A DNA stretch of 64,000 nt from Candidatus Desulfofervidus auxilii (GTDB lineage Bacteria; Desulfobacterota; Desulfofervidia; Desulfofervidales; Desulfofervidaceae). This document shows, piece after piece, positions 51,991-61,464 of the stretch; the stretch's first letter is position 1, and every line of letters begins with the position of its first letter. The stretch is from NCBI RefSeq assembly GCF_001577525.1, contig NZ_CP013015.1, positions 1,753,751 through 1,817,750 on the forward strand, written 5' to 3'. The position numbers were made by a program, and so were the translations under genes. Under the pieces are notes generated by a model. It ran no database searches. It worked only from the letters and a program-made list of their open reading frames with translations, and was not told the origin of the DNA.

Positions 51991-52029
51991 AAGGTTTTGA
52001 GGAATAAAATAAATTTAGGAGGTGAAGTA

Positions 52030-53910
52030 ATGAAAGGGAAATTTCCAAAGCAGGATCTTATTACCCAAATCTTGTTTTTACTTATAATAGGAGCGATCTT
52101 ATCAGTCACAATACCAAATCTAACCTATGCCGTAACAAAAACTACCATTGTTTCTGGTTTACAGGCAGCGGTAGGGGCTGTATTGGATGAGTCAAATAAT
52201 CAGCTTTATTTTGTAGAATATAATCCTCCTGGAAATGGGGCCCTAAAACGTATTAACCTCCCGCCGCAATGCGGAACTTCTACGACTCCTCCATGCTCCG
52301 ACACAATTGTGCCCATTGCAACAGGCTTTTCCCATCCTGAGGATGTGCAGTTAGACTTAGCCCATGGCTTTGCTTATGTGACTACCCGTGATGACCCTGG
52401 CACTACAGGCGCCTTGTGGAAAGTTAATATCTCTACAGGCTCAAAAAGCTTGGTCACCTTCAATCTTGGGGGACCACAACAACTCGTTCTTGACATACCA
52501 AACAACCAAGCCTATACAGTTGGGTACAATGATGGGAGATTAAGACGCATCAACCTTACCACAGGGGCAAAAACCCCTATTTTCATAGGATTAGGCCACC
52601 CAGTAGGTCTTGCCATAACAAACGATAGAAAATATGCATATGTTACTGAGCAGGATGCACCAGCACGAATATCCAAAATCGATTTAACTACAGGAGTTAA
52701 GATAAGTGAAATAGTACTACCAGGTTTAACTGCGCCATTTTTCTTGGCCTGGACAGATAAGAGCCAAAATTCCTTGTATGTGGTTGAACGTGACCCAGCT
52801 AATAAGGTTTCAAGAGTTGACCTAACAATTAACGCCAAAAATAATGCCATAACTGGGCTACCATGGCGGCCTTCAGGGATAGTTGTGAGTAGTCTTGGCA
52901 CGCCAGTATATGTTACTTCAGACAGCGAGATTACCAAAGTTGACCTGGTAGAATTGACTGGACCAGTCTTTATGGGTGTTGGGCATGTTCCAGCCACTAG
53001 TATTGTAGATGGATATGCAACTACAGATCCAGGATATTTCTTTCAGGTAAAGCACTCACCTTTTGGTGGAACACTCAATATCTTTGGCAACCTAACTAAA
53101 TTCAGGGTATTAGGAGCTACACATTACGCAGTCCTAGTTTCTAAAGATGGCGGGACATTTGAGCCTCTTAACCTTAGCTGGAATATGTACAAATGGAATA
53201 CCACAACGCTTAAATACGACCTGGTCCCTGTTGCACCAAATGATGTGACAACAGATGGGACACCAGTGTATCCAATTCCATTAGAAGCCGATGGGAATTA
53301 TCATCCTGAATTCTGGTATCCACCATTCCTTTTTATGCGATGGCCCAGCGGTGAAAACGGTCTATACACTTTCATGGTGAAAATTTATCAAAAGTCTGGG
53401 ACAACCTGGAAGGATCTTACCAAATCATTACCAGCAGCCTTGAATAGTTTGACACTCAGAATTGACAATACACCTCCAGATGTAAAGATATTAAGCATCT
53501 GGCAGAAAGGACCTCCGGATAATGAGATTAAACCATGTGACATTGTCACTAAAGGCAATAACAAATATTATTTTAAGATTACCGCCTATGACCCTAACCA
53601 CCATCTCCTAAACTATAGACTGAATGCATGGTGGGGAGATAACAAATCTGAGTCTATATATGCTGACTCATATAGTGCCCATGTAGATGCTGAAGGCCCA
53701 TACCTATGGAGTGGTATTATAAATACAAAAGTACCACCCACATGGTGGGAAGCAAAATGTAATTGCGCCCATACATTTTATCTTAGGGTAGGGAAAAGGA
53801 CAATTGATGGTTATAATTATATTCTTTCCCGTGGCTATCACAAGTCGATAACAATCAATAACACAGGAGTTACATGTGGAGAAGGGCCATGCGGTTTTCC
53901 ATGCCCATAG
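52030..53910 (+). CDS. Secreted/anchored protein with YVTN-type beta-propeller repeats and a Cys-rich C-terminal region
   Basis: N-terminal hydrophobic segment. Repeated blades (..YVTTRDDPGTTGALWKVNISTGS.., ..YVTEQDAPARISKIDLTTGV.., ..YVVERDPANKVSRVDLT..). C-terminal ..CGEGPCGFPCP. Confidence 0.6.
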   Translation: MKGKFPKQDLITQILFLLIIGAILSVTIPNLTYAVTKTTIVSGLQAAVGAVLDESNNQLYFVEYNPPGNGALKRINLPPQCGTSTTPPCSDTIVPIATGFSHPEDVQLDLAHGFAYVTTRDDPGTTGALWKVNISTGSKSLVTFNLGGPQQLVLDIPNNQAYTVGYNDGRLRRINLTTGAKTPIFIGLGHPVGLAITNDRKYAYVTEQDAPARISKIDLTTGVKISEIVLPGLTAPFFLAWTDKSQNSLYVVERDPANKVSRVDLTINAKNNAITGLPWRPSGIVVSSLGTPVYVTSDSEITKVDLVELTGPVFMGVGHVPATSIVDGYATTDPGYFFQVKHSPFGGTLNIFGNLTKFRVLGATHYAVLVSKDGGTFEPLNLSWNMYKWNTTTLKYDLVPVAPNDVTTDGTPVYPIPLEADGNYHPEFWYPPFLFMRWPSGENGLYTFMVKIYQKSGTTWKDLTKSLPAALNSLTLRIDNTPPDVKILSIWQKGPPDNEIKPCDIVTKGNNKYYFKITAYDPNHHLLNYRLNAWWGDNKSESIYADSYSAHVDAEGPYLWSGIINTKVPPTWWEAKCNCAHTFYLRVGKRTIDGYNYILSRGYHKSITINNTGVTCGEGPCGFPCP

Positions 53911-53937
53911 GAGAAAACAAATTAAGGAGGGAGTAGC

Positions 53938-60161: not shown

Positions 60162-60524
60162 ATGAGTATGAGGAAACTTTATGTAGCAATTATTTTTGTG
60201 GCAAGTATTATCTTCATTGGGTTTGCTAATGCTGATCAGGTCAAAGTCAACATTGTTTATCCCATAAATGGAGCGAGTTATCCTATTACTGATCCATCTG
60301 TTGGAAAATTACACTCAGCTTATTTTACAGCGAGCTTTAGCGTGACTTGCGGGGGAGGTAGCCATAAGGTCAAATGGGGATTTGACCGTTCGACACTTGG
60401 AAGCTCAACATTTTATGACCAGACAAGTATTCAATTTGTGCACAAGTTGCCAGGTGGTAGCCATGTTTTTTGGGTAAAGTCAGACTGCGGGGAAAACAGA
60501 GTGAAGTTTAGGATTGGAAGGTAA
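60162..60524 (+). CDS. Small secreted protein (120 aa), beta-rich, function unknown
   Basis: Signal peptide ..IGFANA, and a GGAGGGAATGAGTATG RBS context. Confidence 0.5.
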   Translation: MSMRKLYVAIIFVASIIFIGFANADQVKVNIVYPINGASYPITDPSVGKLHSAYFTASFSVTCGGGSHKVKWGFDRSTLGSSTFYDQTSIQFVHKLPGGSHVFWVKSDCGENRVKFRIGR

Positions 60525-60564
60525 TTATTAGTTGCAATAAAAAACTAAAATAAGGAGGTTGTTT

Positions 60565-61464
60565 ATGGCAGAAAATAAAATTTTAGGAATGGGGTGGTTA
60601 CCAGATCTTCCTGATTATAGGGATTACACACCAGAACACAGAGAAATTAAACCCCTGCTTGAGGAGATGAACTTAGTAGAAGTAGAGAAGGTAAGCTTAC
60701 CACCCTCTGTAGACTTAAGACCATGGTGCTCAGAGATTGAGGATCAGGGTGCATTGGGTTCATGCACCGCTCATGCTGGAGTGGGTTTGATAGAATATTA
60801 TGAAAGAAAGGCCTTTGGGACTCACATTGATGCATCCCGGCTATTTCTCTATAAAGTAACTCGAAACCTCTTAGGCTGGACAGGAGACACAGGTGCCTAT
60901 CTACGGACCACCATGGGCGCCATGGTATTATTTGGGGTGCCACCTGAAAAATACTGGCCTTATATTACTAGGAAACACCCTGGTCCTGCAGGAGAGAGAA
61001 CCTTTGATGATGAACCACCAGCCTTTTGTTATGCCTTTGCCCAAAACTATCAAACTATAAGATATTATAGACTTGACCCACCAGGCATTTTGTTGACTAC
61101 ACTTCTTCAAAGAATTAAGGCCTACTTAGCAGCTAAAATGCCATCTATGTTTGGATTTACAGTCTTTAGCTCTATAAGACAGGCAGGCACTACAGGAAAA
61201 ATTCCATTTCCATGTCCAGGTGAGAGGATACTGGGTGGCCATGCGGTTGTAGCTGTAGGATATGATGATGGAATGAAAATCAAAAACACCATATGTGGAA
61301 GGGAAACCACTGGAGCACTTTTAATCAGAAACTCCTGGGGCACGGACTGGGGTGAAAATGGTTATGGTTGGTTGCCATATGAGTATGTGTTGCAGGGAAT
61401 GGCTAGAGATTGGTGGACAGTTATAAAAAAAGAGTATGTGCCTACCAAACAGTTTGGAATTTAA
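60565..61464 (+). CDS. Papain-like (C1 family) cysteine peptidase, with no signal peptide
   Basis: QGALGSCTAHAG (Cys), GGHAVVAVGYDD (His), IRNSWGTDWGENGYGWL (Asn/Trp). Confidence 0.8.
   Translation: MAENKILGMGWLPDLPDYRDYTPEHREIKPLLEEMNLVEVEKVSLPPSVDLRPWCSEIEDQGALGSCTAHAGVGLIEYYERKAFGTHIDASRLFLYKVTRNLLGWTGDTGAYLRTTMGAMVLFGVPPEKYWPYITRKHPGPAGERTFDDEPPAFCYAFAQNYQTIRYYRLDPPGILLTTLLQRIKAYLAAKMPSMFGFTVFSSIRQAGTTGKIPFPCPGERILGGHAVVAVGYDDGMKIKNTICGRETTGALLIRNSWGTDWGENGYGWLPYEYVLQGMARDWWTVIKKEYVPTKQFGI

What the first reader, a model, noticed from the sequence alone, without database searches (positions are those of the whole stretch)
51997..61464. Island packing four distinct cysteine-peptidase families with propeller, PepSY and Ig modules
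Within ~9.5 kb, all on one strand, lie nine genes. A YVTN-propeller protein comes first. A secreted C39-like peptidase follows, fused to PepSY-like segments and a 5-blade propeller. Next are a legumain-like (C13) lipoprotein and an Ig/CarbopepD_reg protein. A C25 gingipain-like protein lacks a signal peptide. Two small proteins follow, one cytoplasmic and one secreted, and then a signal-less papain-like C1 peptidase. The block is flanked by a gene-tail remnant on one side and an amidase on the other. The amino-acid composition is W/Y/G/T-rich, unlike the K/E/I-rich housekeeping proteins upstream. This concentration of Cys-peptidase catalytic types in a thermophile is unusual. It may represent an extracellular proteolytic or surface-processing module, or a horizontally acquired unit.
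Basis: partly seen in the sequence, partly recalled or inferred. Interest (0 to 1): 0.65.

Follow-up and report, generated by a model that had tools for sequence, protein, structure and literature searches.

The report
Mosaic cluster of cysteine peptidases
Eight same-strand genes of the thermophilic sulfate reducer Candidatus Desulfofervidus auxilii do encode four different cysteine-peptidase families, but only the first three genes form a unit that recurs in other bacteria, so this is a patchwork and not one 'protease island'.

Summary
Window 51997-61464 carries eight intact + strand ORFs and one gene-tail remnant. All four cysteine-peptidase assignments survive testing with intact catalytic residues: C39-like (g2), C13 (g3), C25 (g5) and C1A (g8). 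The genome is Candidatus Desulfofervidus auxilii.

The 'island' reading holds only in part. Comparison with about 90 related loci splits the block into separate pieces.

(1) g1-g2-g3 is a conserved exported cassette found in several bacterial phyla.
- g1 is a 6-bladed propeller followed by two beta-sandwiches.
- g2 is a C39-like domain, two PepSY domains and a 5-bladed propeller of the glutaminyl-cyclase type.
- g3 is a legumain-like lipoprotein.
- g1 precedes g2 in 50 of 55 loci.
- g3 follows every long g2 (16/16) and no short g2 (0/29).

(2) g5 is a lone, signal-less C25-like gene. It stays 63-82% identical across at least seven phyla, and none of the other island genes lies near it elsewhere.

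(3) g8, a xylellain-type C1A peptidase, directly abuts the cassette in two relatives. g4-g7 therefore look like later additions.

(4) A 173-nt direct repeat, the duplicated tail of g4, brackets g1-g4.

The most likely function of the cassette is cell-envelope protein processing. This is inferred, not shown. Each enzyme belongs to a known family. The conserved cassette and the g5 clade are uncharacterised.

The parts
51822..51994 (+). Remnant of the 3' tail of a g4-like gene. It is copy 1 of a 173-nt direct repeat. It translates to ...LPNGHYLLVVDTLADIAIGPHPSRRVIECSGRTITNVDFELK*.
   Evidence: 80% identical to 57889-58061. A stop codon lies upstream, so it is a truncated pseudogene. Short-read contigs from three SRA samples end inside it.
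51997..53910 (+). g1. Exported protein with a 6-bladed YWTD/YVTN-class beta-propeller (residues ~47-316) and two beta-sandwich domains (~325-620). The likely start is ATG 52030, preceded by AGGAGG at 52017-52022.
53938..55779 (+). g2. Signal peptide, then a C39-like papain-fold peptidase (C49/H151/D181), two PepSY-like domains (~230-385) and a 5-bladed propeller of the glutaminyl-cyclase type (~393-605).
55806..56660 (+). g3. Legumain-like (C13, clan CD) lipoprotein with dyad H129/C176.
   Evidence: Present in 16 of 16 loci with long g2 and 0 of 29 loci with short g2.
56769..58058 (+). g4. Secreted Ig-like (Big_7) protein with a CarboxypepD_reg-like C-terminal beta-sandwich. Its last 173 nt are copy 2 of the direct repeat. 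It is lineage-specific.
   Evidence: Found only in same-species contigs L025 and L026.
58141..59802 (+). g5. Signal-less C25-like (clan CD) peptidase with H321/C358-C359, a DPDGDGKF loop and an FN3-like C-terminal region (assigned by eye). It belongs to a tightly conserved clade that occurs as a lone gene elsewhere.
59838..60146 (+). g6. 102-aa protein without a signal peptide and without a family match.
   Evidence: only a weak PADLOC hit, E 0.005. Named only in Desulfofervidus-type records.
60162..60524 (+). g7. 120-aa protein with a signal peptide and without a family match.
   Evidence: NCBI name 'secreted protein'.
60559..61464 (+). g8. Short xylellain-type C1A papain-family peptidase without a signal peptide (Q63/C69/H228/N258). 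The likely start is ATG 60565.
   Evidence: (PDB 3ois, E 6e-36). g8-like genes abut the cassette in L027 and L028.
61521..62057 (+). Flanking N-acetylmuramoyl-L-alanine amidase (Amidase_3). It is not part of the cluster.
   Evidence: E 8.6e-30.

Best explanation
The 9.5-kb block is a mosaic of separately inherited pieces in the Ca. Desulfofervidus auxilii chromosome.

Its conserved core is the three-gene cassette g1-g2-g3. All three products are exported, so they should act in the periplasm or at the cell surface.
- g2 is a Sec-exported papain-fold peptidase of the double-glycine (C39-like) type. Two PepSY domains follow it; in other peptidases such domains hold activity in check. A 5-bladed propeller comes last.
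- g3 is a membrane-tethered legumain-like clan-CD peptidase. It occurs only where g2 carries that propeller. The propeller is therefore most likely its docking or regulatory partner.
- g1 is the invariant partner of g2. It has the propeller-plus-Ig architecture of surface-layer proteins, so it is most likely the scaffold or the substrate that the peptidases mature.

The other genes are separate additions.
- g8, a cytoplasmic xylellain-type C1A peptidase, is loosely linked to the cassette in the closest relatives.
- g4, g6 and g7 are lineage-specific.
- g5 is an independent, strongly constrained cytoplasmic C25-like peptidase that has come to lie between them.

Shown here: domain identities, catalytic residues and co-occurrence patterns. 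Inferred: cellular location, who cleaves whom, and any joint function of the whole block.
For: Mosaic structure.
- g5 homologues (63-82% identity) in 16 loci from Desulfobacterales, Nitrosomonas, KSB1, cyanobacteria, Anaerolineae, Ignavibacteriales, Kapaibacterium and Nitrospira share nothing else with the window.
- g1-g2-g3 recur with the same order and spacing in unrelated flanks.
- L027 has g3 followed directly by a g8-like gene. L028 has a g8-like gene directly before g1.
- A 173-nt repeat brackets g1-g4.

Cassette statistics.
- g1 lies upstream of g2 in 50 of 55 determinable loci.
- g3 is present in 16 of 16 long-g2 loci and 0 of 29 short-g2 loci.

Enzyme competence.
- g3: dyad and lipobox invariant in 17 sequences.

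Export.
- Hydrophobic leaders and a lipobox are visible in the translations.
- Some g2 relatives carry an outer-membrane beta-barrel in place of the propeller.
- g1 has conserved Cys pairs and an S-layer-like architecture.

Age of g5. GC3 of its homologues runs from 0.27 to 0.90 and follows the host flanks. It was not found in viral contigs or on plasmids.
Against: - No experiment or expression data were found.
- Export is judged by eye. No signal-peptide predictor was available.
- No substrate was identified. No conserved double-glycine leader or Asn site in g1 stands out.
- The window's own g2 does not reach any Pfam peptidase threshold.
- The g3-propeller correlation is not corrected for shared ancestry of the loci.
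- The whole gene order g2-g8 is kept in another D. auxilii sample (L026), and the gaps are short without terminators. The genes may therefore still be co-transcribed and act together in this organism despite separate origins.
- Peptidase-rich surroundings recur in the nearest relatives: C14 and M12-like genes in L038, and C1 and C39_2/C70 genes in L028.
Confidence: 0.55

Rival explanations
1. The whole block g1-g8 is a single, horizontally acquired proteolytic island whose eight products work together outside the cell.
For: - Amino-acid composition shifts sharply, and GC is 0.044 higher than upstream.
- All genes share one strand, with 15-108 nt gaps and no intergenic terminator-like sites.
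- The order is conserved in a second D. auxilii sample (L026).
- There is a direct repeat at one edge.
Against: - g5 is never linked to the other genes in 16 other loci.
- g4, g6 and g7 are absent from every related cassette locus.
- g5, g6 and g8 have no signal peptide.
- GC3 is only about 1.2 SD above the mean.
- No tRNA borders the block, and none of the ten genes scanned matches an integrase family.
- The repeat brackets g1-g4, not the whole block.
Confidence: 0.12
2. The g1-g2(-g3) cassette matures secreted peptides. The C39-like domain removes a double-glycine leader, and the glutaminyl-cyclase-like propeller converts the new N-terminal Gln or Glu to pyroglutamate.
For: - The closest solved fold of the g2 N-domain is a double-glycine leader peptidase (6mpz).
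- The closest solved folds of the propeller are bacterial glutaminyl cyclases (3mbr, 3nok).
- 3 of 21 members hit Pfam Glu_cyclase_2 weakly.
- One relative (L028) has a Cys-rich 64-aa ORF and a radical-SAM enzyme beside the cassette.
Against: - No precursor-peptide gene is conserved next to the cassette.
- g2 is Sec-exported and is not fused to an ABC exporter.
- Short forms lack the propeller altogether.
- Cyclase catalytic residues could not be checked (13% identity).
- This reading leaves the invariant 600-aa partner g1 unexplained.
Confidence: 0.1
3. The genes are a battery of secreted proteases for scavenging environmental protein as a nutrient.
For: - Several products carry export signals.
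- Other peptidase genes (C14, M12-like, S8, M24, M28) lie near related cassettes.
Against: - C39-like and C13 families are typically site-specific processing enzymes (established knowledge of the families).
- g5 and g8 lack signal peptides.
- The non-catalytic partner g1 is conserved more tightly than expected for bulk degradation.
- The host is described as a hydrogen-using chemolithoautotroph (my knowledge of Krukenberg et al. 2016, not checked here).
- No peptide transporter is linked.
Confidence: 0.08

Closest known systems
C39 double-glycine peptidase domains of PCAT/AMS ABC transporters (e.g. PDB 6mpz) and the Pfam Peptidase_C39_2 family
   Different: g2 is Sec-exported and stand-alone, not a cytoplasmic domain of an ABC exporter. 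It is followed by two PepSY domains and a propeller or an outer-membrane barrel. No leader-peptide substrate gene is linked. The window protein is below Pfam threshold.
Legumain / GPI8 family (MEROPS C13, clan CD)
   Same: g3 passes the Pfam C13 cut-off. It has the invariant His-Gly and Cys dyad in the caspase-fold order.
   Different: g3 is a 284-aa bacterial lipoprotein with no prodomain of the eukaryotic type. Asn/Asp specificity and any transpeptidase activity are untested. It is strictly coupled to a propeller-bearing g2.
Gingipains and PorU (MEROPS C25)
   Same: g5 matches Pfam Peptidase_C25 over almost the whole model (positions 45-372 of 374). It has the invariant His/Cys dyad.
   Different: g5 has no signal peptide, no Propeptide_C25 and no T9SS C-terminal domain. 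It has no solved relative by sequence. It forms a clade that is 63-82% identical across phyla and occurs as a lone gene.
Xylellain (Xylella fastidiosa C1A peptidase, PDB 3ois) and short prokaryotic C1A peptidases
   Same: g8 aligns over 283 residues at E 6e-36, including the N-terminal pro-region and Gln/Cys/His/Asn. Such short, signal-less, patchily distributed C1A peptidases are described in PMC10380794.
   Different: Nothing notable, apart from its adjacency to the g1-g3 cassette in three arrangements.
Plant/bacterial-type (five-bladed) glutaminyl cyclases (PDB 3mbr, 3nok)
   Different: Identity is only 10-13%. Pfam Glu_cyclase_2 hits are below threshold. The active site was not assessable. 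The propeller is fused to a peptidase.
YVTN propeller plus PKD surface-layer protein of Methanosarcina (PDB 1l0q)
   Same: It is the best Foldseek match to g1 (E 6e-14), with a propeller followed by Ig-like domains. The g1 profile also matches it by sequence (E 1.9e-12).
   Different: g1 has six blades, and its closest sequence matches are LDL-receptor YWTD propellers. The two C-terminal beta-sandwiches have no recognised family.

Membership tests
Peptidase C39 / C39-like (clan CA), for g2 | Papain-like fold with a Cys at the N-terminus of a helix, plus His and Asp | tested here: met
Peptidase C39 / C39-like (clan CA), for g2 | Significant match to the family profile (PF03412 or PF13529) | tested here: inconclusive
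   The window protein has no hit. 9 of 21 relatives hit PF13529, with best E 3e-5.
Peptidase C39 / C39-like (clan CA), for g2 | Cytoplasmic domain of an ABC exporter that cleaves a double-glycine leader | tested here: not met
   g2 has a signal peptide and no ABC domains. No linked precursor gene was found. Cleavage specificity is not testable here.
PepSY domain, for g2 | Helix packed on a small beta-sheet, with a match to PF03413 | tested here: inconclusive
   Two helix-plus-sheet units lie at ~245-322 and 327-377 in the model. 7 of 21 relatives hit PF03413, with best E 1.7e-4. The window protein is below threshold.
Peptidase C13 (legumain), for g3 | Profile match above the curated cut-off and a His...Cys dyad | tested here: met
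   28.7 bits vs 22.8. H129 and C176 are invariant in 17 homologues.
Peptidase C13 (legumain), for g3 | Cleavage or ligation after Asn/Asp | not testable with these tools
   Needs an enzyme assay.
Peptidase C25 (gingipain), for g5 | Profile match above the curated cut-off and a His...Cys dyad | tested here: met
   24.7 bits vs 23, which is marginal. H321 and C358/C359 are invariant in 18 sequences.
Peptidase C25 (gingipain), for g5 | Secreted zymogen with a signal peptide, a propeptide and a T9SS C-terminal domain | tested here: not met
   There is no hydrophobic N-terminus in any of 18 homologues. There is no Propeptide_C25 hit.
Peptidase C1A (papain family, xylellain type), for g8 | Profile match plus Gln-Cys-His-Asn | tested here: met
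   48 bits vs 20.7. E 6e-36 to 3ois. Q63/C69/H228/N258 are present.
Horizontally acquired genomic island, for the whole block | Deviant nucleotide composition | tested here: inconclusive
   GC is +0.044 (1.5 SD) and GC3 is +0.041 (1.2 SD). Most of the shift is in amino-acid usage.
Horizontally acquired genomic island, for the whole block | Mobility genes, a tRNA target, or flanking repeats at both ends | tested here: not met
   The only tRNAs are at 2155 and 28862. No integrase or transposase family is among the 10 genes scanned. The only long repeat brackets g1-g4 and is a duplicated gene tail.
Horizontally acquired genomic island, for the whole block | Inherited as one unit in other genomes | tested here: not met
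   Only g1-g3 (with or without g8) travel together.
Type I glutaminyl cyclase, for the g2 propeller | Five-bladed propeller fold | tested here: met
Type I glutaminyl cyclase, for the g2 propeller | Catalytic residues and cyclase activity | not testable with these tools
   There is no usable sequence alignment. Pfam PF05096 hits only 3 of 21 members, with best E 0.009.

The most novel reading that the evidence does not exclude
g1-g2(-g3) may be an undescribed envelope protein-maturation system that is widespread in diderm bacteria. In this reading, a Sec-exported double-glycine-type peptidase is gated by PepSY domains. In the long form, a legumain-like lipoprotein docks on a cyclase-like propeller. 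Together they cleave, cyclise or ligate the co-encoded propeller/Ig surface protein. That would make it a new kind of surface-protein sorting or maturation machinery. Separately, the g5 clade would be a cytoplasmic gingipain-like protease conserved at housekeeping level, with an unknown and possibly new cellular role.
Probability: 0.12. Interest if true: 0.75.

Novelty: new variant of a known kind. Interest (0 to 1): 0.4.

Why it matters
Each peptidase belongs to a known family, so the enzymology is not new. The 'island' is mostly a product of gene accretion. Two things are worth keeping.

First, g1-g2 is a conserved, uncharacterised exported gene pair found in at least six bacterial phyla. 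It shows an all-or-none coupling between a cyclase-like propeller on g2 and a legumain-like lipoprotein. This is a concrete hypothesis about protein partnership in the bacterial envelope, and it can be tested.

Second, a signal-less gingipain-like protein keeps 63-82% identity while its codon usage has fully adapted to hosts from 37% to 70% GC. That implies an important function that is still unknown.

For Ca. Desulfofervidus auxilii, which lives in tight methane-oxidising consortia, exported proteases could shape the shared matrix. The cassette is not specific to syntrophs, however.

Tried and rejected
- Anti-phage defence reading (caspase-like proteases): PADLOC gave nothing except a weak g6 hit at E 0.005. 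Rejected.
- Phage or plasmid carriage of g5 or g2: no viral-contig relatives. Plasmids gave only distant propeller or 28%-identity hits. Rejected.
- Regulatory RNA in the block: no Rfam match over 50-64 kb.
- Promoter and terminator scans: counts are not above shuffled expectation, so they are uninformative.
- Solved-structure search by sequence: g5 and the g2 N-domain have no relative, even with family profiles.
- Fold searches of the full-length g1 model were swamped by propellers. The two C-terminal beta-sandwiches remain unassigned.
- The afdb50 fold library was unavailable.
- A conserved third partner of g1-g2 was sought among 148 neighbouring ORFs from 48 loci. None recurs. The most frequent family is Response_reg (5 members), and each peptidase family appears at most twice.
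- A link between g5 and the nearby GH13 alpha-amylase genes: identity is only 23-35%, so this is probably chance.
- Homology between the g1 and g2 propellers: none (E 0.48).
- A double-glycine site in g1 (PFGG at 355-358) was considered as a g2 target. It was rejected because the flanking residues do not fit the known leader pattern and the region is confidently folded.
- The LGG in the ORF-list N-terminus of g1 is translated ribosome-binding site.
- Literature: no paper in the library mentions these genes or the locus tags HS1_0018xx.

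
Full report
WHAT IS THERE

The region 51997-61464 holds eight + strand ORFs, g1-g8. Gaps between them are 15-108 nt, and no terminator-like site lies in a gap. Everything from 38.8 kb to the window end is on the + strand, so shared orientation is not special.

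Exact-sequence look-ups identify the genome as Candidatus Desulfofervidus auxilii (HotSeep-1; Thermodesulfobacteriota). g3 is AMM41600, g6 is HS1_001809 and g8 is AMM41605, all on a 2.54-Mb contig. The IVYWREL index of the non-island proteins predicts growth at about 59 C (the formula is from my own knowledge).

ARE THE PEPTIDASE CALLS RIGHT?

Yes, all four.

- g8 (C1A). Pfam C1 scores 48 bits. The alignment to xylellain (PDB 3ois) has E 6e-36 and includes the N-terminal pro-region. Q63/C69/H228/N258 are present. Short, signal-less, patchily distributed C1A peptidases of this type are described in PMC10380794.
- g3 (C13). It scores 28.7 bits against a cut-off of 22.8. It aligns to the metacaspase GHG/CHSGG dyad. 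H129, C176 and a lipobox are invariant in 17 homologues.
- g5 (C25). It scores 24.7 bits against 23, over nearly the whole model. H321 and C358/C359 are invariant. No homologue has a signal peptide.
- g2 (C39-like).
  - It has no significant Pfam peptidase hit itself.
  - 9 of 21 relatives hit Peptidase_C39_2 and 7 of 21 hit PepSY.
  - H151 and D181 are invariant, and C49 is present in 20 of 21 sequences.

The other two larger proteins:

- g1. The model (pLDDT 85.9) shows a six-bladed YWTD/YVTN-class propeller and two beta-sandwich domains. The best Foldseek hit is the propeller-plus-PKD surface-layer protein 1l0q.
- g4. It has a Big_7 Ig domain and a sub-threshold CarboxypepD_reg domain.

COMPOSITION

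| Measure | Island | Rest of window |
|---|---|---|
| W+Y+G+T | 0.227 | 0.147 +/- 0.024 |
| K+E+I | 0.174 | 0.250 |
| GC | 0.404 | 0.360 +/- 0.029 |
| GC3 | 0.338 | 0.297 +/- 0.034 |

The shift is largely in amino-acid usage. This is what one expects of exported proteins and of conserved imported families. It is not a raw nucleotide signature of recent transfer.

THE BLOCK IS A MOSAIC

g5 stands alone.
- Homologues are 62-82% identical and come from MAGs of many phyla.
- In 16 fetched loci (Desulfobacterales, Nitrosomonas, KSB1, three cyanobacteria, Anaerolineae, Ignavibacteriales, Kapaibacterium, Nitrospira, Acidobacteriota and others), nothing else from the island lies within 10 kb.
- Some of these loci do carry other clan-CD peptidases nearby: C25 with propeptide, C11 and C14.
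- GC3 of the homologues runs from 0.27 to 0.90 and tracks the host flanks (0.37-0.70) while the protein stays 63-82% identical. These are old residents under strong purifying selection, not recent transfers.
- At 50% clustering the whole clade collapses to one representative. The catalytic core (residues ~115-449) is about 40% identical to hundreds of multidomain proteins.
- No relatives were found in viral contigs. On plasmids the only hit was one distant, partial match (27.7% identity, 61% coverage).

g1-g2-g3 is a real unit.
- Three long contigs with unrelated flanks carry g1-like, g2-like and g3-like genes in the same order, with the same 27-nt g1-g2 spacer.
- A metagenome scan with the g2 alignment returned 72 loci.
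- After removing duplicates, g1 lies directly upstream of g2 in 50 of 55 loci where this can be judged. The five exceptions are the most distant g2 relatives.
- g2 exists in three forms:
  - a long form with the propeller;
  - a short form of about 390 aa (C39-like plus two PepSY domains);
  - a form that carries an outer-membrane beta-barrel in place of the propeller.
- g3 follows every long form (16/16) and no short form (0/29).
- Named sources include Nitrospirae, Desulfobacteraceae, Smithella, Acidobacteria, Vicinamibacteria, Gammaproteobacteria, Kiritimatiellae and Schekmanbacteria.

g8 and g4-g7.
- In L027 (g2 89% identical) a g8-like gene follows g3 directly.
- In L028 (74% identical) a g8-like gene directly precedes g1.
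- Neither locus has g4-g7.
- g4, g6 and g7 were seen only in same-species contigs.
- So in this lineage g4-g7 appear to have been added between g3 and g8.

Repeat.
- The 'gene-tail remnant' upstream of g1 is an 80%-identical copy of the last 173 nt of g4 (51822-51994 vs 57889-58061). The two copies bracket g1-g4.
- This is evidence of local duplication or recombination.
- Short-read assemblies from three samples break inside both copies.

IS THE CLUSTERING MORE THAN CHANCE?

This is a rough estimate from my own assumption that cysteine peptidases make up about 0.5% of bacterial genes.
- Four unlinked cysteine-peptidase genes among eight neighbours would be very unlikely.
- Once g2 and g3 are treated as one operon, and g8 as linked to it in relatives, the only coincidence left is g5 lying nearby. 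That is not remarkable on a genome scale.
- No genome-wide count was made.

HOW IT MOST LIKELY WORKS (INFERENCE)

- g1, g2 and g3 carry export signals or a lipobox. g1 has conserved cysteine pairs. Some g2 relatives are fused to an outer-membrane barrel. The cassette should therefore act in the periplasm or at the surface.
- g2 and g3 keep intact active sites across all homologues, so both are probably active enzymes.
- PepSY domains are known as inhibitory or regulatory modules of peptidases (family knowledge). They probably gate the C39-like domain.
- The strict coupling of g3 to the g2 propeller suggests that the propeller docks or regulates the lipoprotein peptidase.
- g1 is invariant, non-catalytic by any recognisable motif, and built like a surface-layer protein. 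It is most likely the scaffold or the substrate.
- A peptide-maturation variant is possible but lacks a conserved precursor gene. In that variant the leader is removed and pyroglutamate is then formed by the cyclase-like propeller.
- No conserved extra partner was found among 148 neighbouring ORFs. The nearest relatives do sit in peptidase-rich surroundings: C14 and M12-like genes in L038, and C1, C39_2/C70 and radical-SAM genes in L028.

COMPARISON WITH WHAT IS KNOWN

- Each enzyme is a member, or a divergent relative, of a described family: C39-like, C13, C25 and C1A.
- I found no description of three things in the searched literature:
  - the exported C39-like/PepSY/cyclase-like-propeller architecture;
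  - its invariant pairing with g1;
  - the all-or-none coupling with a legumain-like lipoprotein.
- No paper mentions these genes in Desulfofervidus.
- PADLOC gave no defence-system match. Rfam gave no RNA element.

VERDICT

The 'single island' interpretation is only partly supported.
- The genuine features are a conserved, uncharacterised envelope cassette (g1-g3) and an unusually constrained orphan C25-like clade (g5). In this genome they are joined by lineage-specific genes and a common C1A peptidase.
- Interest is moderate at 0.4. The enzymes belong to known families, function is inferred only, and there are two concrete, testable leads.

Noticed in passing
window 53560-53910 (g1 residues ~521-637): The window's g1 and its closest database relative (P0241) are about 100% identical over residues 41-520. 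Identity over the last ~115 residues is only 75%, 46% and 82% in successive 40-residue windows. This is a strain-level mosaic or hypervariable C-terminal beta-sandwich, as seen in exposed surface proteins.
   Followed up: partly
window 51822-51994 and 57889-58061: Short-read (Logan) contigs from three SRA samples stop inside both copies of the 173-nt repeat, at about 51943 and about 57983. The likely cause is an identical stretch of about 32 nt. It is not known whether recombinants that lack g1-g4 exist in the population.
   Followed up: partly
L003-L021 (g5 homologues): All named carriers of the g5 clade are metagenome-assembled genomes, and no isolate was seen. Named carriers include an archaeal 'Promethearchaeota' MAG for the g5 clade (P0085) and an 'Altiarchaeales' MAG for the g1 family (P0309). 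These may reflect mis-binning or cross-domain transfer.
   Followed up: no
database records: NCBI records named 'Candidatus Methanoperedenaceae archaeon GB37/GB50' (2.54-Mb contigs) fall in the same 90%-identity clusters as D. auxilii proteins; the copy of g3 in GB37 (CAD7780041.1) is exactly identical. A contig from a 'Candidatus Omnitrophota bacterium' MAG (DRP81_05780, DRP81_05790) carries g1 and g3 relatives at 92% identity or more. These labels look wrong.
   Followed up: no
L027:500-1117, L043:4657-5640, L022:15108-16277, L028:12082-13731: A lipoprotein family with no Pfam match recurs within a few kb of g1-g2 cassettes in four loci.
   Followed up: partly
L028:7613-9188 and L028:9437-10057: Next to a g1-g2-g3 cassette lie a Cys-rich 64-aa ORF, a radical-SAM enzyme and a C39_2/C70-like lipoprotein. 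This may be a peptide-modification set.
   Followed up: partly
L038:9283-11479: A short-form cassette (73-75% identical) is followed by an M12-like metallopeptidase and a strong Peptidase_C14 caspase-domain gene (E 7e-29). A different clan-CD peptidase sits where g3 would be.
   Followed up: partly
window 48431-49354 and 49356-50294: Two adjacent genes are 36% identical (E 7e-58). Both products have lipoprotein-like N-termini. Precomputed annotation of contig L097 lists no Pfam family for either gene. They lie just upstream of the block.
   Followed up: partly
window 62131-64000; L005:17418-19199; L007:19271-21109: GH13 alpha-amylase-family genes lie 2-8 kb downstream of g5 in three loci. They are only 23-35% identical, so this is probably coincidence.
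   Followed up: yes
window 43458-48421: A glycyl-radical enzyme (PFL-like, 803 aa) lies upstream at 43458-45869, followed after two unannotated ORFs by a radical-SAM enzyme at 47516-48421, presumably its activase (my inference). The precomputed Pfam annotation comes from contig L097.
   Followed up: no
window 53530-53770 (g1 residues ~513-592): The second beta-sandwich of g1 has invariant PCDIV, AYDPNHH and CNCAHTF motifs. They suggest a metal or active site that no tool could assign.
   Followed up: no
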